A stretch of DNA of 46,736 bases from Escherichia phage BEK6, in the sequence record MN158208.1; one strand, given 5' to 3'. The notes under the pieces were generated by a model that saw nothing but the letters and a program-made list of their open reading frames with translations, was not told the DNA's origin and did not search any database. Every line of letters begins with the position of its first letter. The stretch's first letter is position 1. Shown one piece after another: positions 2,243 through 17,384 of the stretch. Both the position numbers and the translations under genes were made by a program.

Positions 2243-2253
2243 CCGTGATAAAC

Positions 2254-2278
2254 TAGCCCCGTATATGGGGCTTTTTTA
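2254..2278 (+). terminator. hairpin + T-run between terminase and portal genes
   Basis: AGCCCC-gtatat-GGGGCT followed by TTTTTT, then TTGGAGAAAAAC-ATG. Confidence 0.5.
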
Positions 2279-2290
2279 TTGGAGAAAAAC

Positions 2291-3559
2291 ATGGTCAAGA
2301 CAGACAGCTACGCCAATATCTTTCTAGGCGGCAGTGATGGTAGTGAGATTTACGGGAGCTTGCAGAACCAAGACCCTACAATTCTGGCTTCGATTTATGC
2401 GGATAATGCGCTGGTGCGTAGAATTATCGACACAATCCCAGAGACAGCGCTAGCGGCAGGATTCCACATTGATGGCATTGATGATGAACCTGCATTCTGG
2501 TCTCGATGGGATGATTTAGAAATGACGCGGAATATTAACGATGCCTGGTCATGGGCCAGATTGTTCGGCGGAGCTGCTATTGTAGCTATCGTTAAGGACA
2601 ATAGGGCGCTAACAAGTCCAGTCAGAGAAGGTGCTGAGCTTGAAACCGTTCGCGTTTACGACCGTACGCAGGTAAAAGTACAAACTCGCGAGGAGAACCC
2701 ACGCAACGCACGCTTTGGTAAGCCGTTAACCTATCGCATCACCACAAATGAGAGCGATATGTTCTACGATGTGCATTACAGCCGCATTCACATTATTGAC
2801 GGAGAGCGAATCCCTAACGTAATGCGTCGACAGAATGATGGCTGGGGCCGCAGCGTTCTCTCTAGTGATATTCTTGACTCAATCAAGGATTACACCAACT
2901 GCGAACGACTGGCCACCCAACTGCTGAAGCGAAAGCAGCAAGCGGTGTGGAAAGCGAAAGGACTGGCTGAGTTGTGTGATGATAGCGAAGGATTCGGCGC
3001 GGCTCGATTACGACTTGCGCAGGTTGACAACAATAGCGGCGTTGGCCAGGCAATTGGCATTGATGCGGAATCTGAAGAATATAGCGTTCTGAACTCTGAT
3101 ATTGGCGGGATTGATGCGTTCCTGGATAAGAAGTTTGACAGAATCGTCGCACTGAGCGGCATTCATGAAATCATCCTGAAGAACAAGAACGTTGGCGGCG
3201 TATCCTCAAGCCAGAATACAGCGATGGAGACATTCCACAAGCTAATTGACCGCAAGCGTAACTCTGAACTGCTTCCTGTTCTTGAGTTCCTAATCCCGTT
3301 CATTGTTAACGTTGACGAATGGTCAGTTGAGTTTTATCCCCTAGCGCAGGAATCAAGTAAGGATAAAGCTGAGATTTTGCAGAAGAACGTAAGCAGCATC
3401 GCGGCGCTAGTTGCATCTGGCGTTATGGATATTGATGAGGCGAGAGATACATTGCGTGCAGTCGCTCCAGAGGTTAAGATTAGTGATGGTTCAGTAGAGA
3501 CAGAGGTGACGATTAGTGAAACCAGTAGCGACCAGCTGGAAGTACCCGCAGACAATTGA
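2291..3559 (+). CDS. portal protein
   Basis: ~420-aa ORF immediately after terminase; GGAGAAAAAC-ATG start preceded by hairpin plus T-run; assigned by position and size. Confidence 0.7.
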   Translation: MVKTDSYANIFLGGSDGSEIYGSLQNQDPTILASIYADNALVRRIIDTIPETALAAGFHIDGIDDEPAFWSRWDDLEMTRNINDAWSWARLFGGAAIVAIVKDNRALTSPVREGAELETVRVYDRTQVKVQTREENPRNARFGKPLTYRITTNESDMFYDVHYSRIHIIDGERIPNVMRRQNDGWGRSVLSSDILDSIKDYTNCERLATQLLKRKQQAVWKAKGLAELCDDSEGFGAARLRLAQVDNNSGVGQAIGIDAESEEYSVLNSDIGGIDAFLDKKFDRIVALSGIHEIILKNKNVGGVSSSQNTAMETFHKLIDRKRNSELLPVLEFLIPFIVNVDEWSVEFYPLAQESSKDKAEILQKNVSSIAALVASGVMDIDEARDTLRAVAPEVKISDGSVETEVTISETSSDQLEVPADN

Positions 3560-4244
3560 GAGCCAGGTTAACCGCAATCTAAGTATTGCGGTAACTGAGT
3601 TAATTTCAGCAATGAAGGAGTCAGCAACAAGGCTTAAAATTGATAGTGCAGATGACCTTGAGGAGGAGGATGGATACCTTGACGGGGTAATTGCGGCATT
3701 GGTAGCGTCCTTTATATCAAAAATCCCAGCCATAGGGGCGGCGATATACAGATACAATAGCTCGCAATTTCTTGTGCTTGCAATAAAGACCGGAGGAAGG
3801 TCCAATCCTAGCGTTCTGAACCTTGAGGTTAACGGCATCAATGGTGATGAGCTGTGGTATAATGATGACCTAAATCAGTGGATTTACACCACTAATAAGT
3901 CAGCGATTAAATTACTGAATAACATTAAAGATGATTTCTTGCAGACGGCTGCAACAATGCAGAATGGAGATTACGTAAATCTATCTGACAGGTACAAGGT
4001 CTACAGAAAGAGAACAGCAAACATTGCTTCCGGTATTGTTTCAAGTCTGAATTCGACACTTATGAGACGCAGGCTTGAAGATGCTGGTGTTAGCCGTTAC
4101 ATCTGGCATGGCATGCTGGACGATAGGGAGCGCCAATCGCATATAGCGAGAGAGGGCCTTAGCTTTAAACTAGGTGGTAACGATATATTTCCAGGTCAAG
4201 AATACGGTTGTCGTTGCTGGTCGGTTCCAGATTGGGAATCATAA
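3516..4244 (+). CDS. head morphogenesis protein (Mu gpF / SPP1 gp7-like)
   Basis: C-terminal signature DDRERQSHIAREG...GQEYGCRCW typical of Mu F-like minor head proteins; GTG start with GAGGTGA RBS overlapping the portal 3' end (ATG 3612 is an alternative). Confidence 0.65.
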   Translation: MKPVATSWKYPQTIESQVNRNLSIAVTELISAMKESATRLKIDSADDLEEEDGYLDGVIAALVASFISKIPAIGAAIYRYNSSQFLVLAIKTGGRSNPSVLNLEVNGINGDELWYNDDLNQWIYTTNKSAIKLLNNIKDDFLQTAATMQNGDYVNLSDRYKVYRKRTANIASGIVSSLNSTLMRRRLEDAGVSRYIWHGMLDDRERQSHIAREGLSFKLGGNDIFPGQEYGCRCWSVPDWES

Positions 4245-4256
4245 TAGGAGTATTAA

Positions 4257-5342
4257 ATGAGTAAAATCCGCTATGACAGCGCAAAGTTTAAAGCAACAAT
4301 CGACGAGAATGGATTCTTAGTCGACACGCCAGTAGTCGCACGCATCGGTGTGCAGGTCTACTACACCGAGGATGGTCGCACCGTTCGAGAGTTTCGCCCA
4401 GCAGAGGAGGTTTTCAAGGATGAATCACTCTCCAGCTACCAGGGTAAGCCAATGACTCTGGAACATGTTTTCGTTAACTCAGAGAACGCTAAAGAGGTGG
4501 TGGTAGGTTCCGTTACTGGCAAAGCTGAGCCATTGGGTAGCTCAGTGGTTGCTCCGATTGTTGTTTACGATAACACAGCCATTCAGGAAGCTATGGCAGG
4601 TAACGCCAAGGAGTTATCCGTTGGTTACTCTGCAATTCTTGACGAAACCCCTGGCTGGGGTGACCCCATTACTGGTGAGTACGTACTTAAATCTGATGGT
4701 GATCAATTCGATGCGCCAGAGGGTTGGCAGGAGTTCGACGCAATTCAGCGTGACATTAAAGTGAACCATATCGCAATGGTATATCGAGGTAGAGCAGGCA
4801 TTGCCAAATTGAATATGGACGGTGAGCAGGAAAACCCGTATACTACTGACGTTGATATCAATAAAGAGGATAAACAGGAAATGATTAAAATTAAACTCGA
4901 CGGCGCGCAGGAATTCGAAGTCGCCCCAGAAATCGCTTATCACATCGAAGCACTGAACGCAAAGGCTGACACCGTAATTGCTGAGCGCGATGCACTGAAA
5001 GCTAAAGTTGATGCAATGCCTGCTGAAATCGAAGCTGCCGTGGCTAAAGCGAAAGCTGACGCTGATGCCCTTGCCGCCCTGGTTGCTGTTGCTGCTGAAG
5101 CTGGTGTTAAAGCTGATGGTCTGGATGCTAAAGGCATTAAAGTTGCTTACGTTAAAGAAGTCTCCGGCATTGATGTTTCCGAGAAGTCTGACGCGTACAT
5201 CGACGCAGCGTTCGACATTGCCAAAGAATCTGATAAAATGGCTGAAGTACGTAAAGCGACTACCGCTTCCGACAAATCTGACAGCGCCAATGAGCCTAAG
5301 AAATTAGACCCGCGTGCTCGTTTAGCTAAAATTAAGAAATAA
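4257..5342 (+). CDS. putative head scaffolding protein (possibly protease-scaffold)
   Basis: 361-aa ORF with AGGAG RBS; Ala/Lys/Glu-rich coiled-coil-like C-terminal half (AEIEAAVAKAKADADALAALVAVAAEAG); position between minor head and capsid genes. Confidence 0.5.
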   Translation: MSKIRYDSAKFKATIDENGFLVDTPVVARIGVQVYYTEDGRTVREFRPAEEVFKDESLSSYQGKPMTLEHVFVNSENAKEVVVGSVTGKAEPLGSSVVAPIVVYDNTAIQEAMAGNAKELSVGYSAILDETPGWGDPITGEYVLKSDGDQFDAPEGWQEFDAIQRDIKVNHIAMVYRGRAGIAKLNMDGEQENPYTTDVDINKEDKQEMIKIKLDGAQEFEVAPEIAYHIEALNAKADTVIAERDALKAKVDAMPAEIEAAVAKAKADADALAALVAVAAEAGVKADGLDAKGIKVAYVKEVSGIDVSEKSDAYIDAAFDIAKESDKMAEVRKATTASDKSDSANEPKKLDPRARLAKIKK

Positions 5343-5354
5343 GGAGTTATAAAC

Positions 5355-5849
5355 ATGGCAATTCGTTCCGTAGCACTGGCTGGTATGGTTTCTGATACCT
5401 CTCTGTACAACATCGATGGCGCTTGTGTAGTTGGCGGCGCAGCACCAATTCCGGCTGGCACTGTTGTTAAATTCACAACCGCTCAGTCTGTAGATGGTCA
5501 CAAGATTGTGGAGGCAACTGGCCTCACTGCGGGTAATGCTCTCGGTGTGGTTGTTCGCTCTCATTATCAGACCCCGGATGGAACTGCTCGCGTAAATGAA
5601 GCGGTTAACGTAATGACTCACGGTAGAATCTGGGTTCGCTCAAAACTTACTTCTGCACCAACGTTTGGCCAACCAGTTAAAGTTTCTACCACTGGATTGG
5701 TTGAAGATTCAGGCACGATTGACACTGGATGGACTTTTGCGGGTGGTTACATCAAAAACACTGGCACAGACCCGCAAGGCCTTAGCGTTGATGGCGCACT
5801 AGTTGAAGTTCAGCTTACTCAATCCGCAAAATCAACTGCTGCAGCTTAA
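5355..5849 (+). CDS. capsid-associated structural protein (possible decoration protein)
   Basis: 164-aa ORF with AAGGAG RBS and a strong hairpin/T-run terminator at 5866-5889; function from position only. Confidence 0.4.
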   Translation: MAIRSVALAGMVSDTSLYNIDGACVVGGAAPIPAGTVVKFTTAQSVDGHKIVEATGLTAGNALGVVVRSHYQTPDGTARVNEAVNVMTHGRIWVRSKLTSAPTFGQPVKVSTTGLVEDSGTIDTGWTFAGGYIKNTGTDPQGLSVDGALVEVQLTQSAKSTAAA

Positions 5850-5865
5850 CAATTAAGATATATAA

Positions 5866-5889
5866 AGCCTCCTTCGGGAGGTTTTTTTT
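5866..5889 (+). terminator. rho-independent terminator
   Basis: CCTCC-ttcg-GGAGG followed by TTTTTTTT. Confidence 0.6.
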
Positions 5890-5916
5890 GTAATCAAATT
5901 ACGCCTATGTTATATT
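5888..5916 (+). promoter_or_regulatory. candidate sigma70-type promoter
   Basis: TTGTAA (5888-5893), 17-bp spacer, TATATT (5911-5916), upstream of the gene at 5946. Confidence 0.4.
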
Positions 5917-5945
5917 CAATTCTCACTTAGAAAAGGAGACTAAAC

Positions 5946-6635
5946 ATGGCTTACACCGAAGTTAAGGCTATCAACGCAGATAGCGGACGATTCAATGCAC
6001 TATTGCAAGCAGCTATCACAGCAGGCTTTCAGCCAGTAAGTAAAATCACGGTAAATGGCTCTCAGTCATATTCAATAGTTGTGGCTAAAGGCGCTGATAG
6101 TTCAATCACTGAAGCCAAGGTGATTACTTCAACCAATATGCGCAAGTTGTTCAAAGATATTGAGGCCGCTTCTGATGACGGATTCACCATTGATACATCA
6201 AGCCTGAGCCTGTCGCCAGGCCAGTTCTTTGCTTACGCATATAAAGGAAGTTCAGGTGGTGCTGTTTCAGTATCTTGGGCTGACGTAACCGGAAAACCAG
6301 CCACTTTTGCCCCGATTGTTGGCACTGGTGCAAACCAAGCTATGCCTGGCAATAAGACGCTAGCTAACATTGGTGGCGTAGTTCCTGTATCTGGACTTCC
6401 CGCCGCAAGCACCTCAGCGGCTGGAATTATCCAGATTGGCGCTGAAGCTAATAACGCGATGCCTGGAAACAAGTTTGTTGCAGGCGCAGCTGTCGCTGAC
6501 ATTGTGAGCCAGACCGTGACCGGCACTGAAGCCTCAGAGGTAGCCGCATCAGCTACCACTGCAGTTAACGCAGTTGCCACCAAATTAAATAACCTCTTGG
6601 CGCAGCTTCGCGTAGCTAAGATCATCGCGAGCTAA
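5946..6635 (+). CDS. structural protein, Gly/Ala-rich with fiber-like C-terminus
   Basis: 229-aa ORF with AAAAGGAGA RBS and its own sigma70-like promoter (TTGTAA-17-TATATT); C-terminal VNAVATKLNNLLAQLR resembles fiber trimerisation helices. Confidence 0.4.
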   Translation: MAYTEVKAINADSGRFNALLQAAITAGFQPVSKITVNGSQSYSIVVAKGADSSITEAKVITSTNMRKLFKDIEAASDDGFTIDTSSLSLSPGQFFAYAYKGSSGGAVSVSWADVTGKPATFAPIVGTGANQAMPGNKTLANIGGVVPVSGLPAASTSAAGIIQIGAEANNAMPGNKFVAGAAVADIVSQTVTGTEASEVAASATTAVNAVATKLNNLLAQLRVAKIIAS

Positions 6636-6661
6636 CGAATTATGGGTGACTAACTTATCTG

Positions 6662-6689
6662 TTGATTTGCGGTCGCCCTACTGTATAAT
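6662..6689 (+). promoter_or_regulatory. candidate sigma70-type promoter for the major capsid gene
   Basis: TTGATT (6662-6667), 16-bp spacer, TATAAT (6684-6689). Confidence 0.45.
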
Positions 6690-6727
6690 AAGCTCGTAGA
6701 CACCTAACTGAAAAGGAACAATAAAGA

Positions 6728-7669
6728 ATGGCCATTAAATTTGACGCAGAACAAGCAAAAATCACTGCTCACCTCGAGCAAATGGGCGTAGATAAAGCAG
6801 ATGCCGCTGGTATCTGGACTGTTAGCCAGCTTACCGCTGCTCTGAAACGTGCTTACGAAAAAGAATACGCAGAAAACTCAGTTGTTAATATCTTCCCTGT
6901 AACAAATGAAATTCCTGGTCACGCGAAGTATTTCGAATACCCAGAATTTGATGGTGCTGGCATTGCTCAGATTATCGCTGATTACTCTGACGACCTTCCG
7001 CTGGTTGACGCTTTCATGACTGAGAAACAAGGTAAAGTGTTTCGTTTTGGTAACGCATTCCTGATTTCTATTGATGAAATTAAAGCAGGTGCCGCAACTG
7101 GTCAGCCTCTGTCGACTCGCAAGCAAGCCCTGGCTTTCGAAGCGCACGATAACCTGCTGGATAAACTGGTTTGGTCTGGCTCCACCCCGCACGGTATCCC
7201 TAGCGTATTCAACCATCCGAACATCAACAACGTTGTTGCTGGTACTTGGAACTCAGCAGCTGCTGCCATGACTGACATCACCGCGCTTATTGATGCAATC
7301 GAGACTTCGACCAATGGAACTCACACCGCAACTGATATCTTGCTGCCTGCTTCCGCTCGCCGCCTGATGCAAGAGCTGGTTCCTAACACCTCTATCAGTT
7401 ACGCGCAGTTGTTTGCTACCAACAACTCGGGCATCAATCTGCGTTATCTTCAGTTCCTGGATAACTACGACGGCGCAGGCGGCAAGGCTGCTCTGGCGTT
7501 TGAAAAGAATCCACTCAATATGTCTATCGAGATTCCGGAAGCTACCAACGTTCTTCCAGGACAACCTAAGGACTTGCACTTTAAGTACCCTGTAACATCA
7601 AAAGCTACAGGTTTGATCGTTTATCGTCCACTGACGATGGCTGTAATGAAAGGTATCAAATTCTCGTGA
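6728..7669 (+). CDS. major capsid protein (putative)
   Basis: 313-aa ORF with upstream TTGATT-16-TATAAT promoter and strong terminator 7676-7698; position and size typical of a major capsid protein. Confidence 0.6.
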   Translation: MAIKFDAEQAKITAHLEQMGVDKADAAGIWTVSQLTAALKRAYEKEYAENSVVNIFPVTNEIPGHAKYFEYPEFDGAGIAQIIADYSDDLPLVDAFMTEKQGKVFRFGNAFLISIDEIKAGAATGQPLSTRKQALAFEAHDNLLDKLVWSGSTPHGIPSVFNHPNINNVVAGTWNSAAAAMTDITALIDAIETSTNGTHTATDILLPASARRLMQELVPNTSISYAQLFATNNSGINLRYLQFLDNYDGAGGKAALAFEKNPLNMSIEIPEATNVLPGQPKDLHFKYPVTSKATGLIVYRPLTMAVMKGIKFS

Positions 7670-7675
7670 TAAATC

Positions 7676-7698
7676 GCCCTCTTCGGAGGGCTTTTTTT
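7676..7698 (+). terminator. rho-independent terminator after the major capsid gene
   Basis: GCCCTC-ttcg-GAGGGC followed by TTTTTTT. Confidence 0.65.
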
Positions 7699-7762
7699 AC
7701 GTCTGTACCAAATGGAATTGTTGGGTTATAATCACTCAATAAGATAAACAAAGGAGACAAAA

Positions 7763-8008
7763 ATGATTCGTTTAGAACACACTGGCGCTTGCCTTATCGT
7801 TTACAAGGGTGAGAAATATTTGCCTGGTGACACTTTCGAGGTTGATGTAATTTGCGACGGACTCAAGCGTTTAATCGCAGAGGGTAAACTCACTATTGAA
7901 GGTGACGCTAAAGCAACCAAGCAAATCGCGCAAGAAATTGTTAGTAAGAAAAAGCGCAAAGAACCGAAAACCATCTCCGAAGCTGAGACTGGTAACGAGT
8001 ACAAATAA
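7763..8008 (+). CDS. hypothetical protein, lysine-rich C-terminus
   Basis: 81-aa ORF with AAAGGAGA RBS, flanked by terminators on both sides. Confidence 0.5.
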   Translation: MIRLEHTGACLIVYKGEKYLPGDTFEVDVICDGLKRLIAEGKLTIEGDAKATKQIAQEIVSKKKRKEPKTISEAETGNEYK

Positions 8009-8013
8009 CAAAC

Positions 8014-8036
8014 AGGGCGCTTCGGCGTCCTTTATT
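8014..8036 (+). terminator. rho-independent terminator
   Basis: AGGGCGC-ttcg-GCGTCCT followed by TTTATT. Confidence 0.5.
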
Positions 8037-8049
8037 GTATGGAGCTAAT

Positions 8050-8451
8050 ATGAATGATGCAATTTTGGCGTTTATGCGCTCGCTTGTTCCGGCGCTCAAA
8101 GCGGTGGATGACGAATCAATTAATGTATGGATTGATTTGGCACGCCTATACGTATGCGAAAGCAAATTTGGTGCAGACAAAGACAAGGCTGTCGGGCTTT
8201 ATGCACTACACTTGATGCTCGCCGATGGCGCCTTTAAGGGCGAGAATGAAGGCCTGGAAACATACAGCCGTAGAATGGCAAGTTACGCACTGAGCGGTGA
8301 ATTCTCTGTCACCTATGATAACCAATCAGCAGCATCTGGCGACTTATCATCTTCTCAATTCGGTAGGATGTACAAGGCGCTTCTCCGCAAGAAAGGCGGC
8401 GGCTTCGGTTTAATTACTTCCGCTGGTGGCGGTGGGTGCGGTTGCCGATGA
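8050..8451 (+). CDS. putative head-tail connector / head completion protein
   Basis: ATG 8050 with GGAG RBS (track ORF opens at TTG 8035); position between capsid and tail genes; Gly-rich C-terminus. Confidence 0.4.
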   Translation: MNDAILAFMRSLVPALKAVDDESINVWIDLARLYVCESKFGADKDKAVGLYALHLMLADGAFKGENEGLETYSRRMASYALSGEFSVTYDNQSAASGDLSSSQFGRMYKALLRKKGGGFGLITSAGGGGCGCR

Positions 8452-8819
8452 ACTACAACGAAATCGAATCAATCACTCGCTCTGGCATTAACTTCTTTAG
8501 TGATGCCAATGGCGTTTATGAAATGAGTACTGGTGATGGATATGTTGAAATCGTTAACGGCGTTGAAGTTGAAGTTCCTTCGCAAACATTTCAGCTAAAA
8601 GGCTTGGTGCGAGAAATCAAGACGCGAGATATCGATGGCGAGTTTATCCAGTTTGGCGATAAGCGCGGAATCTTCACGGCACAGGTGGAAATTAAGCATG
8701 GTTATCAGATTAAGGTTGATGGTGAGACTTTCGTTGTTGTTGACCCGCGACCTGTAAAACCAGCCGGCACAGTTGTTGGTTATAGACCGATTCTTCGTAG
8801 GGTGGCTACTTATGGCTAG
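8448..8819 (+). CDS. putative head-tail joining protein
   Basis: ORF overlapping the upstream stop (start ATG 8448 or earlier at 8436); function from position only. Confidence 0.35.
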   Translation: MNYNEIESITRSGINFFSDANGVYEMSTGDGYVEIVNGVEVEVPSQTFQLKGLVREIKTRDIDGEFIQFGDKRGIFTAQVEIKHGYQIKVDGETFVVVDPRPVKPAGTVVGYRPILRRVATYG

Positions 8820-9652: not shown

Positions 9653-9667
9653 CAAAAGGAAAAATAC

Positions 9668-10324: not shown

Positions 10325-10330
10325 AACACA

Positions 10331-10356
10331 AACCCTCTTCGGAGGGTTTTTTATTG
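10331..10356 (+). terminator. rho-independent terminator after the major tail gene
   Basis: CCCTC-ttcg-GAGGG followed by TTTTTTATT. Confidence 0.65.
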
Positions 10357-10357
10357 C

Positions 10358-10375
10358 ATAGCACTTTTTGATAAA
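10358..10375 (+). promoter_or_regulatory. gene-boundary palindrome copy (ATAGCACTTTTTGATAAA) with -10-like TATAGT 22 bp downstream
   Basis: TTGATA ends 10373, TATAGT 10396-10401, CATCGAAACGAAA 10407-10419, ATG 10435. Confidence 0.5.
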
Positions 10376-10434
10376 GCACTTATTCAGTTTTGCTGTATAG
10401 TTAACTCATCGAAACGAAATGGGGGAATTAAGAG

Positions 10435-10683
10435 ATGAATAACGTTAAAAACATTATCAAACTTACTGCGGTTCTGGTTGCTTTTTATGCGGTAGTTCAG
10501 ATTGTTAACCCAACTGGCGAGGCTGATGCAAATAGCAAGGCAAACAAATATACTGTTGAATTTTCCAAGGCTTATCGAGCATGTCAGGAGCTTGTGGGTG
10601 GTAAGGTTGACCAAATAATGAAATATGGCAAAGAGGTTTGTAAGGACTCAGCCGCTAAGATTGCAAAAGAAAACACTAAGTAA
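10435..10683 (+). CDS. small secreted/membrane protein (moron)
   Basis: 82-aa ORF with hydrophobic N-terminus (IIKLTAVLVAFYAVVQIV); preceded by its own palindrome / -10-like / CATCGAAACGAAA leader module. Confidence 0.5.
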   Translation: MNNVKNIIKLTAVLVAFYAVVQIVNPTGEADANSKANKYTVEFSKAYRACQELVGGKVDQIMKYGKEVCKDSAAKIAKENTK

Positions 10684-10721
10684 TAGAATACATACTCATA
10701 AACAATAAGGGGATCAACAAA

Positions 10722-11036
10722 ATGGCTAAATTCAAACTTTCACTGTCGGCACTTCCTGACTTTAAGCTGCCGGTAAAATTCAAGCTGGCTAACGACCAGG
10801 ATGTAGAGGTTATCTTTACAGTAAAGCATAAGAAAACATCTGAGCTTCAGGAATTGCTTAATAAAGAAGGACTGAGCACCAAAGAACTCATCATGGCAAT
10901 TGCTTCTGATTGGGATTTGGAGGAAGAATACAACGAGGATAACGTTAATGAGTTCTCCGACCTGTTCCCGGCCTCAACCGTTGCACTTACTACCGCTTAT
11001 ATGCAGGCACTGGCAGGCCAGCGGGTAAAAAACTAA
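10722..11036 (+). CDS. tail assembly chaperone (gpG-like)
   Basis: 104-aa acidic ORF directly upstream of the tape measure gene, ending at a slippery A_AAA_AAC. Confidence 0.6.
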   Translation: MAKFKLSLSALPDFKLPVKFKLANDQDVEVIFTVKHKKTSELQELLNKEGLSTKELIMAIASDWDLEEEYNEDNVNEFSDLFPASTVALTTAYMQALAGQRVKN

Positions 11037-11356
11037 AGAGGGCGGTGTATCTACAGTACCAGTCAGAGCCAACTGATGCCGAACTGGAAGCTATTGGGAT
11101 GCGCCGCTCTGATTACGAAGACGAAGAGCCTGAAGTTTTACACTTCGACGACAACATGATGAAGGCTTGGGACATTTATTGTTCAATGGCCACGCAATGG
11201 AGGGTTGGAGCTAACGGACCTACAGGGTTAGATTACAACGTGCTAAATTTCCTCTTTAGAGTGTATAATGTCTCAGAAGAAGAATTGGTGCTCAGTGATT
11301 TACGCATCCTTGAAGCTAAGGCTCTCGAGATGATGGATAATCTGAGAAAAAAATAA
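10722..11356 (+). CDS. tail assembly chaperone, predicted -1 frameshift product (gpGT-like)
   Basis: Heptamer A_AAA_AAC at 11027-11033 in the zero frame, 1 nt before the G stop; the -1 frame is open through 11356. Confidence 0.45.
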
Positions 11357-11376
11357 CCCGCTTCGGCGGGTTTTCT
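11356..11376 (+). terminator. hairpin + T-run before the tape measure gene
   Basis: ACCCGC-ttcg-GCGGGT followed by TTTTCT. Confidence 0.5.
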
Positions 11377-11391
11377 ATTATGGAGGCTTAG

Positions 11392-14370
11392 ATGGCAACA
11401 AATGAATTAGCCGGAATTACACTAGCCGTAGACGTCTCGCAGGTAGATAGAGGTACACAGTCCCTGCAGAAGTTCAGACAGGCAAACCAGCAGGCCGCTT
11501 CCGGCATTAGTGAGTTCGTCAACGCCGAGCAGGTTGCAAAGAATCAAGCCAGAGACACAGCTCGCGCACTTGCTGAACAGCAAGCATCTTTAGCTAAATT
11601 GCAAACAGCTATTGACCCAACTGCGGCAAAGTTCCGTAAGCTGCAAGAGGCAGCGGTAGGTCTTGATAAGGCATTCGCGGCTGGCGTGGTTCCTGATGAG
11701 GAGTTTTTCCGCTTAGGTGAGGCGCTTGAAACGCAGAGCGCAAAGCTTGCTCGCTCACGTGCGGCGCTAACTGAAGAGGGAAGGGCGGCGGCACAGGCTG
11801 CAAAGGATAAAGCAAAAGCAAAGGCTGAAGCTGATAGATTCATTGCATCACTTGAGCGTCAGGCTCAGGCGGCGACATTGACGAGAGAGGAGTACCTAAA
11901 GCTACAAGCGGCCCAGCTTGGAGTTAGTTCCCAGGCTGCGCCCATCATTGACAGAATCGCCGATGCATCACAGAAGGCAAACACCCAGCTAATTGCTCAA
12001 AGCAAGGCCTTTCAACGCTCTGGCTTAAGCGCAGGTCAATACAAGGCTGCAATCTCTCAATTGCCAGCGCAGATTACAGATATTGGGACATCACTTGCTG
12101 GCGGCATTCCGATTTGGCTTATTGCAATTCAGCAAGGCGGACAAATTAAGGATGCATTTGGAGGTATTGGTAACACATTTAGGTTTGCGCTTGCTGCTTT
12201 AAACCCGTTCAACGTAGCAGTTGGTGTTCTCGGTGGCGCTCTTGTTGCTTTAGGCGTCGGTGCTGCGCAGGCTGAAAGTGAATTCAGGGCGTTAAACTCT
12301 GCCATTGCGTTCTCAAACAACTCCACAATCGCATCAATCTCGCAGGTTAGAGAGTTGGTTAGCTCTGTTTCTGATGCTACTGGCGCAACCAGAGGGCTTG
12401 TGACTAGCATCGCAACAAGCCTTATTGAGCAAGGGAACCTTACACTGACGCAGATTGACAAGATTACCAAATCAACCGCCAGATGGGCGCAGTTGACAGG
12501 TAAGGATGCGAAGGAGATTACTGGTTACTATAACCAGATTGCAAGCGACCCAATCCAGGGTTTAGTTGACTTGGATAAGCGATTTAACTTCCTCACGCAG
12601 GGGCAATTGACGACAATCGAAAGATTGAGAGAGACTAGGGGTGAGGTTGAAGCTGTTACCGCCGCGATTGATATTTTCAGCAAGTCACAGGAAGCTAACC
12701 TTAACGACATAGCTGCGCAGTTAACTCCACTTGAGTTGGCCTGGAATGATTTTAGAAAGTACATCTCTGATATCTGGGATGCAATTAGTCGTAGAACGGT
12801 TGGGGCGCTGAACTTGTTTGTTGACGTAATAGCAGGAACAATTGAGCAAATCAGGGTCTTCCTTAACAGCGGTGACGTGCTGATTGGTGAATTCGTAATT
12901 AGCTCAATTCAGGCGTTGCAGAACATACCTGGTCTTGATGGTGTCGGTGATGACGTTATCAAGGCTCAGCGGGAGATTATCGATGCAGCTAAGAAGAATA
13001 ACCTTGAGCTAGAAAAGTCTATCAGGGAGCGAGACGCTAGAATAAGAAAAGGAGAAATGGGTTACGTTACTCGCAGAGAGAATCAGAATACCAATGAGCA
13101 GCCAGGCACGGATGAGGAGTTTGCAAAGAGGAAGAAGGCGCTTCAGGATGAGCTTGACGCGATTAAGAAGAACAGGAAAGAGGAAAATGGGAGGGTTAAG
13201 GAGCAAAGGGATTTAACAATTGGTTACGAATCTGGCGTGCTGGCACTTCAGGCTCAACTCAAGGTTCTTCAGGAAAATAGGGATATTGGCGCATTAATAA
13301 GTAATGAGCGCAAGCAGTATCTTCAAGAGGAGGCTAAATTCAGGATTCTTGAGCAGAGGCAACTTGATGGCTCAATTACCAAAGAGCAGGCAAGACTTCT
13401 CATTGAAAAGGATAAAGTTCTTGCACTCGCAAGTCAGAAAGCTGAGTTAGGCGATCAGATTGTTTTGCAGGAGCGTGCCAATAAGTTAGCTGAAGATAAC
13501 CGCAAAAAGATTCTTCAGATTAACAATGAGGCAAGCAATATTAATTTTGGGGCTGGCCTGTCTTCTCGGGAACAGCAGAGGGCAAGAGAGATCCAGGCTC
13601 TTCAGTCAAATCAGGTTAATGCTGGCGGCTCTCTTGATGATGTTGATTTCCAGCAGTTACTTGAAGCGAGAAAGGAATACTACAAGCAGGAGGATAATCT
13701 TAGGTCAGACTGGCAATCTGGTGTAACATCCACTCTCGCCGACTTGACAGAGAAATATACAGACTACAACCAGATTGCTAAGGACTTAACCGTTGCGGCA
13801 TTTGACGGGATTACAGAGCAAATTACAAACCTTGTAACCACTGGTGAGACGAACTTTAGGGAGTTCACAACAAGCATCCTGAAAATGATTGCGAAGATTG
13901 CAACTCAATTGCTTTTAGTTAAGGCCATCGAATCAACACTAACTAGTTTTGGTGGTGGTGGAGGTAACGCGTTTGGCTCATTTGCATCTGCTATGGGGTT
14001 CGCTGGCGGCGGCTACACTGGTGATGGTGGAAAATATCAGCCAGCAGGAACGGTACACCGTGGTGAGTTTGTATTCACAAAAGAAGCGACTAGCAGAATT
14101 GGCGTGAAAAACCTTTATGCGCTAATGAAGGGTTACGCAAACGGCGGTGCTGTTGGTGGTCCATCTGGTTATGCTAATGGCGGCTTGGTTTCTGGTGGGT
14201 CAAATGTTAATGTTAGTGGCATCACCGTTAACGTAAGCTCGGGTTTTGGTAGCGACCCAGAACAGGCTAAGGCATTGCAAAGTGGAGTCAAGGCTATCGT
14301 AGCGGAAGAGATTGCTCAGTCTTTCCAGCAGGGCGGCCGTGCGTATGCTTACCTTCGCGGATTCAACTAA
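11392..14370 (+). CDS. tail tape measure protein
   Basis: 992-aa ORF, GGAGG RBS, long Ala/Gln/Glu-rich coiled-coil regions and Gly-rich C-terminus; canonical position after G/GT. Confidence 0.85.
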   Translation: MATNELAGITLAVDVSQVDRGTQSLQKFRQANQQAASGISEFVNAEQVAKNQARDTARALAEQQASLAKLQTAIDPTAAKFRKLQEAAVGLDKAFAAGVVPDEEFFRLGEALETQSAKLARSRAALTEEGRAAAQAAKDKAKAKAEADRFIASLERQAQAATLTREEYLKLQAAQLGVSSQAAPIIDRIADASQKANTQLIAQSKAFQRSGLSAGQYKAAISQLPAQITDIGTSLAGGIPIWLIAIQQGGQIKDAFGGIGNTFRFALAALNPFNVAVGVLGGALVALGVGAAQAESEFRALNSAIAFSNNSTIASISQVRELVSSVSDATGATRGLVTSIATSLIEQGNLTLTQIDKITKSTARWAQLTGKDAKEITGYYNQIASDPIQGLVDLDKRFNFLTQGQLTTIERLRETRGEVEAVTAAIDIFSKSQEANLNDIAAQLTPLELAWNDFRKYISDIWDAISRRTVGALNLFVDVIAGTIEQIRVFLNSGDVLIGEFVISSIQALQNIPGLDGVGDDVIKAQREIIDAAKKNNLELEKSIRERDARIRKGEMGYVTRRENQNTNEQPGTDEEFAKRKKALQDELDAIKKNRKEENGRVKEQRDLTIGYESGVLALQAQLKVLQENRDIGALISNERKQYLQEEAKFRILEQRQLDGSITKEQARLLIEKDKVLALASQKAELGDQIVLQERANKLAEDNRKKILQINNEASNINFGAGLSSREQQRAREIQALQSNQVNAGGSLDDVDFQQLLEARKEYYKQEDNLRSDWQSGVTSTLADLTEKYTDYNQIAKDLTVAAFDGITEQITNLVTTGETNFREFTTSILKMIAKIATQLLLVKAIESTLTSFGGGGGNAFGSFASAMGFAGGGYTGDGGKYQPAGTVHRGEFVFTKEATSRIGVKNLYALMKGYANGGAVGGPSGYANGGLVSGGSNVNVSGITVNVSSGFGSDPEQAKALQSGVKAIVAEEIAQSFQQGGRAYAYLRGFN

Positions 14371-14400
14371 TTAACGGGGCTTCGGCCCCTAAGGATTTTT

Positions 14401-14751
14401 ATGGCTATTGACACATTTACCTGGTGCACTCAGATACAAAATGGAGGTGCTGCATTTTCCAACACAAACAACGTGCGAATTGTTAGCTTCGGTAATGGTT
14501 ACGAACAGCGCGGAACGGGAGGATACCGCAGCAACAAGCGCAGTTATCAGATGACTTACACTAACGAGGACTGGCGCGATGTGATGGACTTTTGCTTCAA
14601 CCACATCATTACTCCATTTTTCTGGACTACGCCGCAGGGCGATACATCCATGTTTGTTATTCAGCAGGATAGCATTAGCGTAACACCGCTAAGCAAGCAG
14701 ATTCAGACTGTAAGCATGCAATTCGTAGAAGTATTTAGTTCAATGCGTTAA
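14401..14751 (+). CDS. minor tail protein (lambda gpM-like)
   Basis: 116-aa ORF immediately after the tape measure gene; size/position as lambda M. Confidence 0.55.
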   Translation: MAIDTFTWCTQIQNGGAAFSNTNNVRIVSFGNGYEQRGTGGYRSNKRSYQMTYTNEDWRDVMDFCFNHIITPFFWTTPQGDTSMFVIQQDSISVTPLSKQIQTVSMQFVEVFSSMR

Positions 14752-14755
14752 ACTA

Positions 14756-14776
14756 AGCCCCATTAGGGGCTTTTTT
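14756..14776 (+). terminator. hairpin + T-run between M-like and L-like genes
   Basis: AGCCCC-atta-GGGGCT followed by TTTTTT, then TTGGAGAAAATC-ATG. Confidence 0.55.
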
Positions 14777-14789
14777 ATTGGAGAAAATC

Positions 14790-15545
14790 ATGTTAAGTCC
14801 AAAGTTTGAAAATCAGCTGCAAAGCCTTTTCCCTGGCGAGATTGTGACACTAATCCAGGTTGACGGAACCTCCTTCGGAAGTCTCGTTTACAACTTCCAC
14901 AATGAGAACATTTCATACACGCCAGAAGAGATTATGCTGTCCCAGATGAATGGGGAGCCACTACCAGAGAAGACTATTACATTTCGCGGTGAAGAGTATG
15001 GTCCTAGACCTTTCGGTATCTCGGGCATCAATATGACTTCTGACGGCAAGGCAAACAAAGTAACGCTAACAGTATCAAACGTGGACCAGCGTATCAGTGC
15101 CTTGATTCGCACTTACAATGGATTAGTCAAGGCTAAGGTTACTATCTGGATTACCACACGTGATAACATCAATGAAGATGGAAGTATTGCTGATGGTGAC
15201 TATCGCCGATTTGTTTACTTCATTGAGCGACCTAAGCAGGTTGATTACAAAACTGCGTCATTTGAGCTTAGTAGCCCGATGGATATGGATGGCATTTATA
15301 TCCCGGCGAGACTTGTTCAGTCTGTTTGCTATTGGGCTTCACGTGGCTGGTATCGTAGCGGGAATGGTTGCGACTACGCTGGTAATCGTTACTTTGACAA
15401 GGATGATAACCCAGTATCAGACCCTTCATTAGACTTCTGCGCCGGAACGGTTAATAGCTGTAAAATTAGATTTGGTGAGAATAATCAGCTTTCATTTGGT
15501 GGATGCGCGGCAGCAAGCCTTCAAGCTAAAGCAAATCAGAGCTAA
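14790..15545 (+). CDS. minor tail protein (lambda gpL-like)
   Basis: Cys-containing C-terminal region (CYWASRGWY...GNGCDYAGN...DFCAGTVNSC) like the gpL Fe-S motif; GGAGAAAATC-ATG start after a terminator. Confidence 0.7.
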   Translation: MLSPKFENQLQSLFPGEIVTLIQVDGTSFGSLVYNFHNENISYTPEEIMLSQMNGEPLPEKTITFRGEEYGPRPFGISGINMTSDGKANKVTLTVSNVDQRISALIRTYNGLVKAKVTIWITTRDNINEDGSIADGDYRRFVYFIERPKQVDYKTASFELSSPMDMDGIYIPARLVQSVCYWASRGWYRSGNGCDYAGNRYFDKDDNPVSDPSLDFCAGTVNSCKIRFGENNQLSFGGCAAASLQAKANQS

Positions 15546-15563
15546 ATAGCACGAATTGCTAAA
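15544..15563 (+). promoter_or_regulatory. gene-boundary palindrome copy AAATAGCACGAATTGCTAAA
   Basis: Overlaps stop of the L-like gene; TATAGT at 15584-15589 exactly 22 bp after TTGCTA. Confidence 0.5.
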
Positions 15564-15618
15564 CGATGAAGCCATGGATGGCGTATAGTTACTTCACACA
15601 AACGAGAGGGGTTAAAAA

Positions 15619-15981
15619 ATGTTCTACATTAAATTTAACGGATACAAAAAAGATAAAGAAGAATGCGAAGGTTTATTTTCTGTTGGTGAAACTTACGCCT
15701 GCGATGTTGTTGACTCGGGTAGGTACTATCAGGTTAGGGATGATGATGGTAAAACTGTAAAATTTAGCAGCATGCTCCATGATAGTTATTACAGCTTTTC
15801 ACGAGTTCATATTGAGGAAGATAGCTTAACTTTGATCAAATATGCGCGTGATGGAGAAATGAAATATCGAATGAATGGTGTTGATGTTACTAAGTCATTC
15901 TTTGAGGATAAGCTTCGTGAAGTTGAGTTACTTAAATCAAGAGGTGTTTCTGTGTTTGTAGATTTTGAGGTTAGTTTTTAA
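15619..15981 (+). CDS. hypothetical protein (moron between L-like and K-like genes)
   Basis: 120-aa ORF preceded by palindrome (15544-15563) / TATAGT (15584-15589) / leader module and followed by strong terminator 16005-16030. Confidence 0.5.
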   Translation: MFYIKFNGYKKDKEECEGLFSVGETYACDVVDSGRYYQVRDDDGKTVKFSSMLHDSYYSFSRVHIEEDSLTLIKYARDGEMKYRMNGVDVTKSFFEDKLREVELLKSRGVSVFVDFEVSF

Positions 15982-16004
15982 TAAACGAGATTAGTGTTAA
16001 ACTG

Positions 16005-16030
16005 GGTCAATCGAGAGATTGACCTTTTTT
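16005..16030 (+). terminator. rho-independent terminator after the moron at 15619
   Basis: GGTCAATC-gaga-GATTGACC followed by TTTTTT, then TTGGAGATAAA-ATG. Confidence 0.6.
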
Positions 16031-16042
16031 ATTGGAGATAAA

Positions 16043-16801
16043 ATGTTAACACCAAAAGTTAAACTGGAAATCTTCCAGCACGCAAAGGAAGCTTACCCGC
16101 ACGAATGTTGTGGGGTAGTGACCCAGAAGGGTCGTGCCCAGAAGTATCACAGAATCACAAATGCCAGCAAAGACCCTGAGAATGAGTTCATCCTTGATTC
16201 GAATGAGTATGCCGACATTGCATTTAATCTGGTTGATAACGAGTCAATTGTTTATGTAGTTCACTCACACACTGGTGATGGTGCAACAACAAGACCTAGC
16301 CCTGCGGATACATGTAGCTGTAATGAATGCGAGATTCCTTATGTAATTGTCAGCATTCCAGAGGGCGATATGCGCATCCTTGAACCTTCAACCATGCCAC
16401 TGATTGGCCGCCCGTGGGGTCTTGGAAGCTTTGATTGCTGGGGGCTAGTGATGAGTTTTCACAAGAAATACGGTGTCAAACTGAATGACTACCGAGTTAA
16501 TTACCCGTGGTGGGAGAAACGGTACAATGAAAATATCTATGACGACAACTGGATTAAGGAAGGATTTGAGCTGGTAAAAACTTCAGACATCCCGGTTGGC
16601 TCAATGATTATGATGCAGGTGCAGAGTGAGGTAACAAACCACGCTGGAGTATACATTGGCAACAACAGATTCATTCACCATCTTTATGGTAAAATGAGTT
16701 CCATTGATATCTATTCCGATTACTGGCGAGAGCGTACAGTGCGGATCGTTCGCCATAAAGATTTACCAGAGGATGTAAATTATGACCCAGAAACTGATTG
16801 A
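16043..16801 (+). CDS. tail tip assembly protein (lambda gpK-like, MPN/JAB + NlpC/P60-type)
   Basis: HSHTGDGATTRPSPADT JAB/MPN-like metal motif plus C-terminal Cys/His hydrolase-like region; GGAG RBS before ATG 16043. Confidence 0.7.
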   Translation: MLTPKVKLEIFQHAKEAYPHECCGVVTQKGRAQKYHRITNASKDPENEFILDSNEYADIAFNLVDNESIVYVVHSHTGDGATTRPSPADTCSCNECEIPYVIVSIPEGDMRILEPSTMPLIGRPWGLGSFDCWGLVMSFHKKYGVKLNDYRVNYPWWEKRYNENIYDDNWIKEGFELVKTSDIPVGSMIMMQVQSEVTNHAGVYIGNNRFIHHLYGKMSSIDIYSDYWRERTVRIVRHKDLPEDVNYDPETD

Positions 16802-17354: not shown

Positions 17355-17362
17355 ATATCATA

Positions 17363-17384
17363 CCCGCCTAGTGCGGGTTTTTTA
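17363..17384 (+). terminator. hairpin + T-run before the J-like gene
   Basis: CCCGC-ctagt-GCGGG followed by TTTTTTATTT. Confidence 0.5.

What the first reader, a model, noticed from the sequence alone, without database searches (positions are those of the whole stretch)
2254..16045. Recurrent hairpin + TTTTTTATTGGAGA(A/T)AAA(A/T)C-ATG cassette in front of late genes
The portal gene (2254-2293), the L-like gene (14756-14792) and the K-like gene (16005-16045) are each preceded by a GC-rich hairpin, a T-run and the same RBS context TTTTTTATTGGAGA…ATG. Two of the hairpins are near-identical (AGCCCC-loop-GGGGCT). This looks like a reused terminator-RBS unit, possibly a leaky terminator tuning expression ratios or enabling terminator-coupled translation initiation.
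Basis: seen in the sequence. Interest (0 to 1): 0.4.

Follow-up and report, generated by a model that had tools for sequence, protein, structure and literature searches.

The report
Reused terminator plus ribosome-site junction module
Three gene junctions of this T1-like coliphage carry the same ~48-base module (a promoter-like hexamer, a terminator-type hairpin with a T-run, then a ribosome-binding site); it is real and under selection, but is mostly an already annotated feature of this phage family that also marks where extra genes get inserted.

Summary
The window is a complete Rtpvirus genome (Drexlerviridae, T1-like coliphage). TTTTTTATTGGAGA occurs exactly three times, before portal, L and K. 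The shared unit also has a left flank, (TGn)TAAACT, abutting each hairpin. A structure model built only from M/L orthologues finds exactly these three full-length copies.

Units 1 and 2 are ancient. The portal unit is present in every family member examined, with covarying stems. Phage T1's GenBank record annotates the orthologous hairpins as rho-independent terminators. Unit 3 is not ancestral. Most relatives have a tight L-K junction. The unit appears only together with an inserted promoter-bearing small gene, so it is that moron's terminator fused to K's ribosome site.

Best reading: these are intrinsic terminator/attenuator hairpins whose U-tract runs straight into the Shine-Dalgarno of the next gene. 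They insulate late-gene modules and inserted genes. Their conserved flanks bound slots where genes are swapped, as with T4 PeSLs.

Unresolved: the hexamer varies only as TAnAnT across the family. It may be a -10 element that restarts transcription inside the hairpin, but no -35 is detectable and no transcript data exist.

This is a new member of known kinds, of modest interest.

The parts
2245..2293 (+). Unit 1 at the TerL/portal junction: gTGaTAAACT (hexamer 2249-2254), hairpin 2255-2272, T6ATT + GGAGA (2272-2285), portal ATG 2291-2293
   Evidence: It is conserved upstream of portal in every Drexlerviridae variant that had a hairpin before portal. The T1 orthologue is annotated as a terminator.
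14746..14792 (+). Unit 2 at the M/L junction: gCGtTAAACT (hexamer 14749-14754, whose TAA is the M stop codon), hairpin 14755-14772, T6ATT + GGAGA (14771-14784), L ATG 14790-14792
   Evidence: It is conserved in Rtp-like relatives whether or not a gene is inserted upstream. Stem variants are AAGCCCC, AGGCCCC, AAGACCC, GGGCCC and AAGGCCC.
15994..16045 (+). Unit 3 at the X/K junction: gTGtTAAACT (hexamer 15998-16003), hairpin 16004-16025, T6ATT + GGAGA (16025-16038), K ATG 16043-16045. It acts as the terminator of the inserted gene X and carries K's ribosome site.
   Evidence: It is present only where a small ORF occupies the L-K slot: the window, phiEB49/L007, SU57, ACG-M12, and CY1 with a different ORF.
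15546..15618 (+). 5' regulatory element of the inserted gene X: family direct repeat TAGCACGAATTGCTAA (15547-15562), a small hairpin, a -10-like TATAGT (15584-15589) 22 nt after TTGCTA, the leader ..CACAAACGAGAGG, SD
   Evidence: The same element precedes every inserted gene at these junctions in relatives. The repeat is described in PMC11447400.
15619..15981 (+). Inserted gene X (120 aa, phrog_14592 'virion structural protein'). It is absent from most relatives and is a paralogue of the gene that occupies the TerL/portal slot in IME253 (gp36).
8014..8052 (+). Context: another hairpin + T-run + SD junction (TTTATTGTATGGAG..ATG 8050), without the TAAACT flank. It is not a member of the three-copy family.
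11355..11394 (+). Context: hairpin + TTTTCTATTATGGAGG + ATG of the tape-measure gene. It has the same design with different flanks. The orthologous T1 terminator is at 19508-19527.
17362..17398 (+). Context: I/J junction hairpin + TTTTTTATT followed by a -10-like TGTAGAAT, so the order here is terminator then promoter-like hexamer.

Best explanation
Each unit is a factor-independent (intrinsic) terminator or attenuator: a 6-9 bp GC-rich hairpin followed by U6AUU. Its U-tract runs directly into the Shine-Dalgarno (GGAGA) and start codon of the next late gene. On transcripts arriving from upstream, the hairpin and U-tract stop a fraction of polymerases. This insulates the downstream module from upstream promoters and stabilises the upstream 3' end. 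Polymerases that read through produce an mRNA in which the hairpin sequesters upstream sequence, so the next gene gets a standard, unstructured, U-rich, SD-optimal initiation region. Units 1 (TerL/portal) and 2 (M/L) are ancient fixtures of Drexlerviridae late-gene module boundaries. Unit 3 is the terminator of a classical moron (promoter + ORF X + terminator) inserted between L and K. It keeps X's own promoter from over-driving K and I, and it replaces K's original ribosome site. At the DNA level, the conserved 5' repeat-promoter and the 3' unit delimit slots in which ORFs are exchanged. Shown here: the sequence family, conservation, stem covariation, its slot-bound distribution, and the paralogy of the moron. 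Inferred: actual termination, its efficiency, and the recombination mechanism.
For: The anatomy is typical of intrinsic terminators, and the folds are stable: -13.9 to -15.6 kcal/mol, z -2.5 to -3.2. On 35 distinct family members 99.1% of stem cells are paired. Four of 7 pairs show double (compensatory) changes, 0 of 500 shuffles reach this, and sliding the register by one column drops pairing to 74-77%. The noncoding unit is more conserved than its coding flanks: 83% identity against 72% and 67%, with third codon positions at 36%. T1's record annotates rho-independent terminators at the orthologous TerL/portal, M/L, I/J and pre-TMP junctions. The TLS paper summarises the T1 late region as 'transcriptons' flanked by such terminators. 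Unit 3 is absent where L and K abut (TAAGGAGAAATAAatg in 8 relatives). It is present only downstream of a small ORF that carries the repeat-type promoter, and this holds for two unrelated ORFs (X, and a 69-aa ORF in CY1). X and the TerL/portal-slot gene IME253 gp36 are both full-length phrog_14592. Inserted genes always sit between the upstream stop codon and the unit. The same tight terminator-SD fusion recurs in about 20 unrelated viral contigs. This shows that the right flank is a convergent functional design.
Against: No transcript 3'-end, read-through or reporter data exist for this phage group in the searched literature. The hairpins look like efficient terminators, yet essential genes (portal to protease, L, K-I) follow with no other recognisable promoter. 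Pure termination therefore cannot be the whole story: they must be leaky, antiterminated, or coupled to re-initiation. The invariant TAnAnT hexamer on the left is not explained by terminator function alone. Other terminators in these genomes have plain A-rich left flanks. HNH-gene insertions at L-K bring no such unit.
Confidence: 0.7

Rival explanations
1. Terminate-and-restart element. The hexamer abutting the hairpin (TAAACT here, TATAAT in T1-like relatives) is a sigma-70 -10 element, often with TGn. A start about 7 nt downstream falls in the 5' arm or loop. Transcripts begun there lack half the hairpin, cannot terminate, and carry a short open leader. Transcripts from upstream are stopped by the full hairpin. 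This adds to the terminator reading rather than excluding it.
For: Every one of about 37 distinct portal-junction variants across the family has a TAnAnT hexamer 0-4 nt left of the hairpin: TATAAT 17, TAAACT 8, TACAAT 6, TAAAAT 4, TACACT 1. The bases on either side vary freely. In alignment A1 hexamer positions 1, 2 and 6, the key -10 positions, are invariant. TGn precedes the hexamer in units 1 and 3 and in most portal units. Among 154 distinct terminator-like sites, 60 of 74 that abut an SD have such a hexamer, against 17 of 80 that are followed by a spacer, which usually holds its own TGnTATAAT. These sites are not phylogenetically independent. At the orthologous M/L and I/J junctions T1 has the terminator followed by a -10-like hexamer, so both elements recur in either order. 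BPROM-based annotation of SU57 uses TAAACT as the -10 at both junctions. RNAs starting in the loop are unstructured: -3 to -5.9 kcal/mol, z at or above -0.4.
Against: No -35 is recognisable, and the consensus scan calls no promoter at the units in the window, T1 or L111. TGn is absent in unit 2 and in many relatives. The left flank ATAAA is complementary to the UUUAU of the tail, so it could instead be a terminator A-tract. Tight units at 8014 and 11355 lack the hexamer, so read-through must occur there anyway. TAA of the hexamer is sometimes simply the upstream stop codon. My hexamer search pre-imposed TAnAnT.
Confidence: 0.35
2. The units are primarily DNA-level recombination linkers, in the style of T4 PeSLs. 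Their sequence conservation exists because short conserved boundaries (repeat-promoter on the left, unit on the right) let homologous recombination move or swap gene cassettes between slots and between phages.
For: The same junctions hold nothing, small ORFs of different families, or HNH endonuclease genes in different relatives. The repeat-promoter is always on the left and the unit on the right. Two unrelated ORFs share identical flanks in the L-K slot. phrog_14592 paralogues occupy two different slots, each bounded by the same kind of flanks. PeSLs, the known analogue, are composite promoter/stem-loop/SD units shown to mediate such shuffling.
Against: Conserved flanks of 10-15 nt are short for homologous recombination. 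Conservation with compensatory stem changes points to an RNA or transcriptional function that selection maintains. Units 1 and 2 are equally conserved in genomes with empty slots. No recombination junctions inside the units were mapped here. There is no within-genome homogenisation of the hairpins.
Confidence: 0.3
3. The hairpins do not terminate. They act post-transcriptionally as 3' stabilisers after endonucleolytic cleavage in the U-rich tail, and/or as structural insulators that keep the SD region open, so they set differential mRNA half-lives and translation rates within one long late transcript.
For: The U-rich, single-stranded tract directly 5' of the SD is the kind of sequence known to enhance initiation and to attract RNase E (established knowledge, not tested here). 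The unit always stays with the downstream gene when something inserts.
Against: A perfect U5-6 tract immediately after a GC-rich stem is the defining signal for termination. Stability hairpins need no U-tract. The stems are far too short for RNase III. T1 annotators and two prediction schemes call them terminators.
Confidence: 0.12
4. The shared sequence is coincidence or base composition: three independent terminators that happen to look alike.
For: TTTTTTATT tails also follow the hairpins at 10330 and 17362, and GGAGA-type SDs are common in this genome. Unrelated phages show the same right flank.
Against: Three exact 14-mers against 0.7 expected even with two mismatches allowed. The extra shared left flank occurs at these three and at none of the other roughly eight late-region hairpins. 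The covariance-model scores are well separated. There is deep conservation.
Confidence: 0.03

Closest known systems
Rho-independent terminators bounding the 'transcriptons' of the phage T1 late region (annotated in GenBank NC_005833; summarised in PMC11447400)
   Same: They sit at the same junctions (TerL/portal, M/L, I/J, before TMP). The anatomy is the same: a GC hairpin, a T-run, and often a directly abutting GGAG and ATG. The T1 portal unit is TATAATt-AGGGCTGTC..GACGGCCCT-TTTTATTGGAGGaaacATG.
   Different: The T1 annotation treats them as plain terminators. It does not note the recurrent flanks, the conserved hexamer to the left of the hairpin, or the link with insertion slots. At T1's M/L and I/J junctions the promoter-like hexamer lies after the hairpin, not before it.
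Morons (promoter + ORF + factor-independent terminator inserted between conserved genes of lambdoid and HK97-like phages; Hendrix/Juhala concept, from my own knowledge)
   Same: Unit 3 with ORF X and its upstream promoter-like element fits the definition. It lies between tail genes L and K, is absent from most relatives, and has its own promoter and terminator.
   Different: Here the terminator is fused to the ribosome site of the next essential gene. It belongs to the same sequence family as two resident, non-moron junction units.
PeSLs (promoter-early stem-loops) of T4-type phages (PMC2839356, PMC4122927)
   Same: Both are small composite regulatory cassettes made of a sigma-70-type element, a terminator stem-loop, then SD and start. 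They are repeated in the genome and flank variable ORFs. PeSLs are proposed and partly shown to mediate modular shuffling.
   Different: PeSLs have full consensus -35/-10 promoters with the stem-loop between or over the boxes. They occur in early hyperplastic regions and their promoter and terminator activities were measured. The units here lack a -35, have the hairpin downstream of the hexamer, sit inside the late structural operon, and are untested. The closer PeSL look-alike in this genome is the repeat-type promoter with an embedded hairpin and T-run, e.g. 44055-44094.
Start-associated sequences (SAS/ESAS) of Cluster K mycobacteriophages (from my own knowledge, not checked here)
   Same: A conserved short sequence that includes the ribosome site lies immediately upstream of a subset of start codons. 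Some copies are preceded by an inverted repeat.
   Different: The sequence, host and phage group are unrelated. SAS has no U-tract or terminator character, and far more copies occur per genome.
The 21-nt intergenic direct repeat aaATAGCACnnnTTGnTAAAA of TLS, T1 and Rtp (PMC11447400)
   Same: It is the partner element. It forms the left boundary of every occupied slot, including 15547-15562 in the window. In T1-like relatives it lies 8 nt upstream of the portal unit's TATAAT.
   Different: It is a different motif, with about 19 copies, mostly in early and middle regions. It is not part of the three-copy unit in this genome.

Membership tests
Intrinsic (rho-independent) terminator | GC-rich stem-loop of about 5-12 bp with a short loop | tested here: met
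   The stems have 7, 7 and 9 pairs with 4-5 GC pairs and 4-nt loops. Folds are -13.9 to -15.6 kcal/mol.
Intrinsic (rho-independent) terminator | U-tract immediately 3' of the stem | tested here: met
   T6ATT directly follows each stem. The first 5 T are invariant in 36 portal variants.
Intrinsic (rho-independent) terminator | Structure maintained by selection (compensatory changes) | tested here: met
   99.1% of cells are paired, 4 of 7 pairs show double changes, 0 of 500 shuffles reach this, and the slide control gives 74-77%. Caveat: the alignment was fitted to the model.
Intrinsic (rho-independent) terminator | Intergenic, co-oriented, downstream of a stop codon | tested here: met
   The stops lie 12, 3 and 22 nt upstream of the stems.
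Intrinsic (rho-independent) terminator | RNA 3' ends or termination in vivo or in vitro | not testable with these tools
   No transcriptome or Term-seq data for Drexlerviridae were found in the library.
Moron (applies to unit 3 + ORF X) | Gene present in some and absent in other closely related genomes, lying between two conserved genes | tested here: met
   Eight relatives have a tight L-K junction. X is present in the window, phiEB49, SU57, ACG-M12 and others.
Moron (applies to unit 3 + ORF X) | Own promoter upstream | tested here: inconclusive
   The conserved repeat and a TATAGT hexamer at fixed 22-nt spacing sit upstream. BPROM calls a promoter there in SU57. No TSS data exist.
Moron (applies to unit 3 + ORF X) | Own factor-independent terminator downstream | tested here: met
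   Unit 3's hairpin and T-run are present only when the slot is occupied by a small ORF.
PeSL-like composite promoter/terminator cassette | Consensus sigma-70 -35 and -10 boxes | tested here: not met
   Only a -10-like hexamer is present. No -35 is found and no promoter is called by the scan.
PeSL-like composite promoter/terminator cassette | Stem-loop plus SD and start codon within one repeated intergenic unit | tested here: met
PeSL-like composite promoter/terminator cassette | Flank variable ORFs; indels between relatives have the units at their edges | tested here: met
PeSL-like composite promoter/terminator cassette | Recombination between copies (mini-circles, mapped crossovers) | not testable with these tools
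   This needs inverse PCR or population sequencing.
Sigma-70 promoter (hexamer left of hairpin) | -10 hexamer with T-12, A-11 and T-7 | tested here: met
   TAAACT occurs three times in the window. The family-wide pattern is TAnAnT.
Sigma-70 promoter (hexamer left of hairpin) | -35 hexamer at 16-18 nt, or an extended -10 TGn | tested here: inconclusive
   There is no -35. TGn is present in units 1 and 3 but not in unit 2. About 15 of 36 portal variants have TGn in register.
Sigma-70 promoter (hexamer left of hairpin) | Mapped transcription start | not testable with these tools
   No data are available.

The most novel reading that the evidence does not exclude
The unit is a bifunctional 'terminate-and-restart' signal. 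A -35-less sigma-70 -10 hexamer is placed so that its own transcripts begin inside the terminator's 5' arm and therefore escape it, while all upstream transcripts meet the complete hairpin. This resets transcription at late-gene module boundaries within about 48 bp. It also provides portable slot boundaries, together with the ATAGCAC...TTGnTAAA repeat-promoters, for gene exchange across Drexlerviridae.
Probability: 0.3. Interest if true: 0.55.

Novelty: new member of a known kind. Interest (0 to 1): 0.3.

Why it matters
T1-like phages are common therapeutic and contaminant coliphages, and their gene regulation is almost unstudied. The family's own annotators list unexplained intergenic repeats as an open question. 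This analysis shows that late-gene junctions carry a conserved, portable terminator/ribosome-site module, and that extra genes are inserted between a repeat-type promoter and this module. That gives a concrete grammar for annotating these genomes. It explains where morons and homing-endonuclease genes land. It also offers compact (about 48 bp) insulating parts for engineering genes into these phages without disturbing tail or head gene dosage. If the embedded -10 proves active, the unit would be a neat natural example of an overlapping terminator and promoter.

Tried and rejected
1. Chance or base composition is rejected.

2. A known RNA family is rejected. Rfam at gathering thresholds finds only tRNA hits, far from the units.

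3. RNase III processing sites are rejected on anatomy, because the stems are only 6-9 bp.

4. Concerted evolution or gene conversion between the paralogous units within a genome is not supported. Hairpins 1 and 2 are alike in the window's clade. In the phiEB49-like clade and in L009/L086 the portal and L hairpins differ.

5. Canonical -35/-10 promoters are not called at any unit.

6. Reading the hexamer as only a multi-frame stop signal fails, because it is out of frame in unit 3.

7. MAFFT alignment followed by RNAalifold mis-registered the stems and recovered only 3 pairs. It was replaced by a covariance-model alignment.

8. Alignment A2 contained sequences I had edited by hand. It was discarded and not used for any result.

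9. Two literature searches for T1-family transcriptomes found nothing. The Rtp genome paper is not held in the library.

10. A first regex-based unit finder failed and was replaced.


Full report
**What the window is.** The 46.7-kb window matches complete genomes of Escherichia siphoviruses of the genus Rtpvirus (Drexlerviridae, Braunvirinae) at 87-91% identity over the first 20 kb. It is a T1-like virulent coliphage. It starts at the small terminase gene and runs through a lambda-like tail module.

- The three sites read as reported.
- TTTTTTATTGGAGA occurs exactly three times, at 2272, 14771 and 16025, all on the + strand.
- Even with two mismatches allowed, only 0.7 matches are expected from shuffles.
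- Each 14-mer directly follows a terminator-type hairpin: 2255-2272, 14755-14772 and 16004-16025.
- The similarity also extends to the left. All three hairpins are abutted by TAAACT, preceded by gTGa, gCGt and gTGt respectively.
- A covariance model built only from six orthologues of the M/L unit finds, with filters off, full-length matches in the window at exactly these three places: 73.8, 51.8 and 29.9 bits.
- The next matches score 21 bits or less and cover just a hairpin and T-run.
- The genome has about ten terminator-like hairpins in the late region. Only these three form the family.

**Units 1 and 2 are ancient and selected.**
- I fetched the portal neighbourhood from 56 IMG/VR contigs, plus T1, IME253, SU57 and CY1.
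- Every Drexlerviridae variant that has a hairpin before portal shows the same order: a TAnAnT hexamer, 0-4 nt, a hairpin, T5-7(A)TT, GGAG, ATG. There are 36-39 distinct sequences, with portal identity down to about 50%.
- The stems change by compensation: AGCCCC/GGGGCT, GCCCCT/AGGGGC, GGCTGG/CCAGCC, GGGCCA/TGGCCC and GGGCTGTC/GACGGCCC.
- The M/L unit shows AAGCCCC, AGGCCCC, AAGACCC, GGGCCC and AAGGCCC stems.
- On a model-guided alignment of 40 hits (35 distinct), 99.1% of stem cells pair. Four of 7 pairs show double changes and no shuffle reaches this. Sliding the register by one column drops pairing to 74-77%. The alignment leans towards the model, which is a caveat.
- Between the window and the phiEB49-like clade the noncoding unit is 80-83% identical. 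The flanking coding DNA is 65-72% identical, and third codon positions are only about 36% identical.

**These hairpins are already annotated as terminators.** The T1 GenBank record carries 'rho-independent transcriptional termination site' features at the orthologous positions. They are 10545-10573 (TerL/portal), 22793-22816 (M/L), 24972-24994 (I/J) and 19508-19527 (before the tape-measure gene). The TLS paper summarises the T1 late region as 'transcriptons' flanked by such terminators. The core of the finding is therefore a known feature of the family.

**Unit 3 is different: it came with an inserted gene.**
- In eight relatives L and K abut, with junctions such as TAAGGAGAAATAAatg.
- Unit 3 exists only where a small ORF occupies the L-K gap. 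X is a 120-aa ORF at 15619-15981 in the window, phiEB49/L007, SU57, ACG-M12 and others.
- CY1, TR2 and TR3 hold an unrelated 69-aa ORF in the same gap with the same flanks.
- HNH-endonuclease or Rha-type insertions at this junction bring no unit.
- X is preceded by the family's conserved promoter-like element, TAGCACGAATTGCTAA followed 22 nt later by TATAGT.
- The structure promoter + ORF + terminator between two conserved tail genes is the textbook definition of a moron (definition from my own knowledge).
- X and IME253 gp36 both match phrog_14592 over their full length, at E 3e-34 and 8e-49. gp36 occupies the TerL/portal slot between the same kind of promoter element and unit 1.
- The simplest history is that an ancestral cassette [promoter-ORF-unit] moved between slots. 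The flanks were then held by selection while the stem drifted by compensation.

**Slots.**
- At TerL/portal, M/L and L/K, relatives carry nothing, small ORFs of several families, or HNH genes.
- Insertions at TerL/portal and M/L always lie between the upstream stop codon and the hexamer of the unit.
- Except for the reverse-strand Rha-type gene of IME253, every inserted gene starts with the ATAGCACnnnTTGnTAAA element.
- This resembles the T4-type PeSL system. There, composite promoter/stem-loop/SD cassettes flank variable ORFs and mediate their shuffling.

**How it most likely works.** The anatomy is that of an intrinsic terminator whose U-tract is also the U-rich leader of the next gene's Shine-Dalgarno. 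I infer three roles:
- Partial termination, which insulates modules and, for unit 3, shields K and I from X's promoter.
- A standardised, open initiation region on read-through RNA.
- DNA-level slot boundaries.

Read-through must occur somewhere. The tight hairpin-SD junctions at 8014 and 11355 (before the tape-measure gene) have no promoter-like element at all. In unit 2 the M stop codon lies only 3 nt from the stem. A terminating ribosome should therefore hinder hairpin formation and favour read-through. That step is an inference from the established effect of ribosome proximity on terminators.

**The open question is the hexamer.**

Evidence for a -10 element:
- Family-wide it varies only as TAnAnT: TATAAT 17, TAAACT 8, TACAAT 6, TAAAAT 4 and TACACT 1. 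The neighbouring bases vary freely.
- In alignment A1 hexamer positions 1, 2 and 6 are invariant.
- TGn precedes it in units 1 and 3.
- Among 154 distinct terminator-like sites, 60 of 74 that abut an SD have such a hexamer. Only 17 of 80 followed by a spacer have one, and that spacer usually holds its own TGnTATAAT. The sites are not phylogenetically independent.
- T1 has the same two elements in the opposite order at M/L and I/J.
- The SU57 record annotates BPROM promoters that use TAAACT as the -10.
- A start about 7 nt downstream would fall inside the hairpin. Such RNAs are predicted to be unstructured, so they would escape termination.

Evidence against:
- No -35 is detectable and no scan calls a promoter there.
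- TGn is inconsistent.
- ATAAA pairs with the UUUAU of the tail in the minimum-energy folds, like a terminator A-tract.
- My hexamer search pre-imposed the TAnAnT pattern.

I rate the terminate-and-restart reading at about 0.3-0.35.

**Convergence.** A scan of IMG/VR for TAAACT-N14-26-TTTTTATTGGAGA returned 63 stretches. About 25 are Rtp-like. About 20 come from unrelated contigs yet also have a real GC hairpin and a nearby start codon. The right flank (U-tract fused to GGAGA) is therefore a general, convergent design. This tempers any claim of uniqueness.

**Verdict.** Two copies are family-conserved and already annotated as terminators. The third is a moron terminator. The possibly novel aspects are the overlapped -10 and the slot grammar with the repeat-promoter, and both remain untested. 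Interest is modest.

Noticed in passing
window, about 19 copies, e.g. 10359, 15547, 25198, 33195, 33529, 43239, 44055, 44719, 45445 (+) and 22083, 22842, 37575, 37733, 38116, 40113, 40895, 41541 (-): The family's unexplained 21-nt direct repeat (ATAGCACnnnTTGnTAAA; PMC11447400) sits at a fixed distance from a -10-like hexamer. TAnnnT begins 22 nt after TTGnTA in 15 copies and 23 nt after in 2 more, out of 19. A conserved leader TTAnnnCATCGAAACGA, an SD and a start codon follow. This puts the repeat centre near -41/-42, the position of a class II activator site rather than a -35. It may bear on the function question the TLS authors left open.
   Followed up: partly
window 44055-44094, 38116-38077 (-), 40895-40856 (-): Several repeat-type promoters have a complete terminator-like hairpin and T-run embedded between the repeat and the -10-like hexamer, e.g. 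TTGCTAAACCCGCTCCTGCGGGTTTTGTTATAGT. This is the arrangement described for T4 PeSLs.
   Followed up: no
L089-L130 (T1-like portal loci), about 60 nt upstream of the portal start: In most T1-like relatives the same direct repeat lies directly after the TerL stop and only 8 nt upstream of the portal unit's TATAAT, instead of the usual 22 nt. I have no explanation for the different spacing.
   Followed up: partly
window 17379-17445: The I/J hairpin is followed by TTTTTTATTTAGTGTAGAATG. The -10-like TAGAAT overlaps the first ATG of the long J ORF (17396). SU57 annotates the J start at a downstream ATG with a GAGG ribosome site. The true J start in the window is probably downstream of 17396.
   Followed up: partly
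window 46309-46407 (+): Rfam's tRNA model hits a second, 99-nt tRNA-like stretch (39.3 bits) right after the tRNA-Arg(tct) at 46224-46301. ARAGORN does not call it.
   Followed up: no
L131 (T1) 28566-28587 versus window 16004-16025: The T1 terminator downstream of the J-like gene (AAGGGCATCGAGAGATGCCCTT) shares the 10-nt core ATCGAGAGAT, including the GAGA loop, with the hairpin of unit 3. This could be common descent or coincidence.
   Followed up: no
L079, L088 (TerL/portal); L011, L012, L014, L015 (L/K); L001 26530-27000 and 30135-30623: HNH homing-endonuclease genes occupy the same late-gene junctions in relatives. They use the same repeat-type promoter element as the small morons. At L/K they end directly on K's start, with the SD inside their own coding sequence and no terminator.
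   Followed up: partly
L012 (phage DTL copy in IMG/VR) about 3400-3650: The L gene appears to contain a direct duplication of about 121 nt (the stretch ...GGCATTTACATCCCTGCCAGACTTGTT occurs twice). This would shift the reading frame, so it may be an assembly artefact.
   Followed up: no
window 2240-2251: The TerL stop TAG is followed in frame by CCG TGA TAA, a run of back-up stop codons that overlaps the TGn and hexamer of unit 1.
   Followed up: no
L142, L145-L147, L149, L152, L156, L167, L177, L192 (unrelated IMG/VR contigs): Unrelated viral contigs carry TAAACT, a GC hairpin, TTTTTATTGGAGA and a start codon. This shows that direct fusion of a terminator to the ribosome site is a widespread convergent design in phage genomes.
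   Followed up: partly
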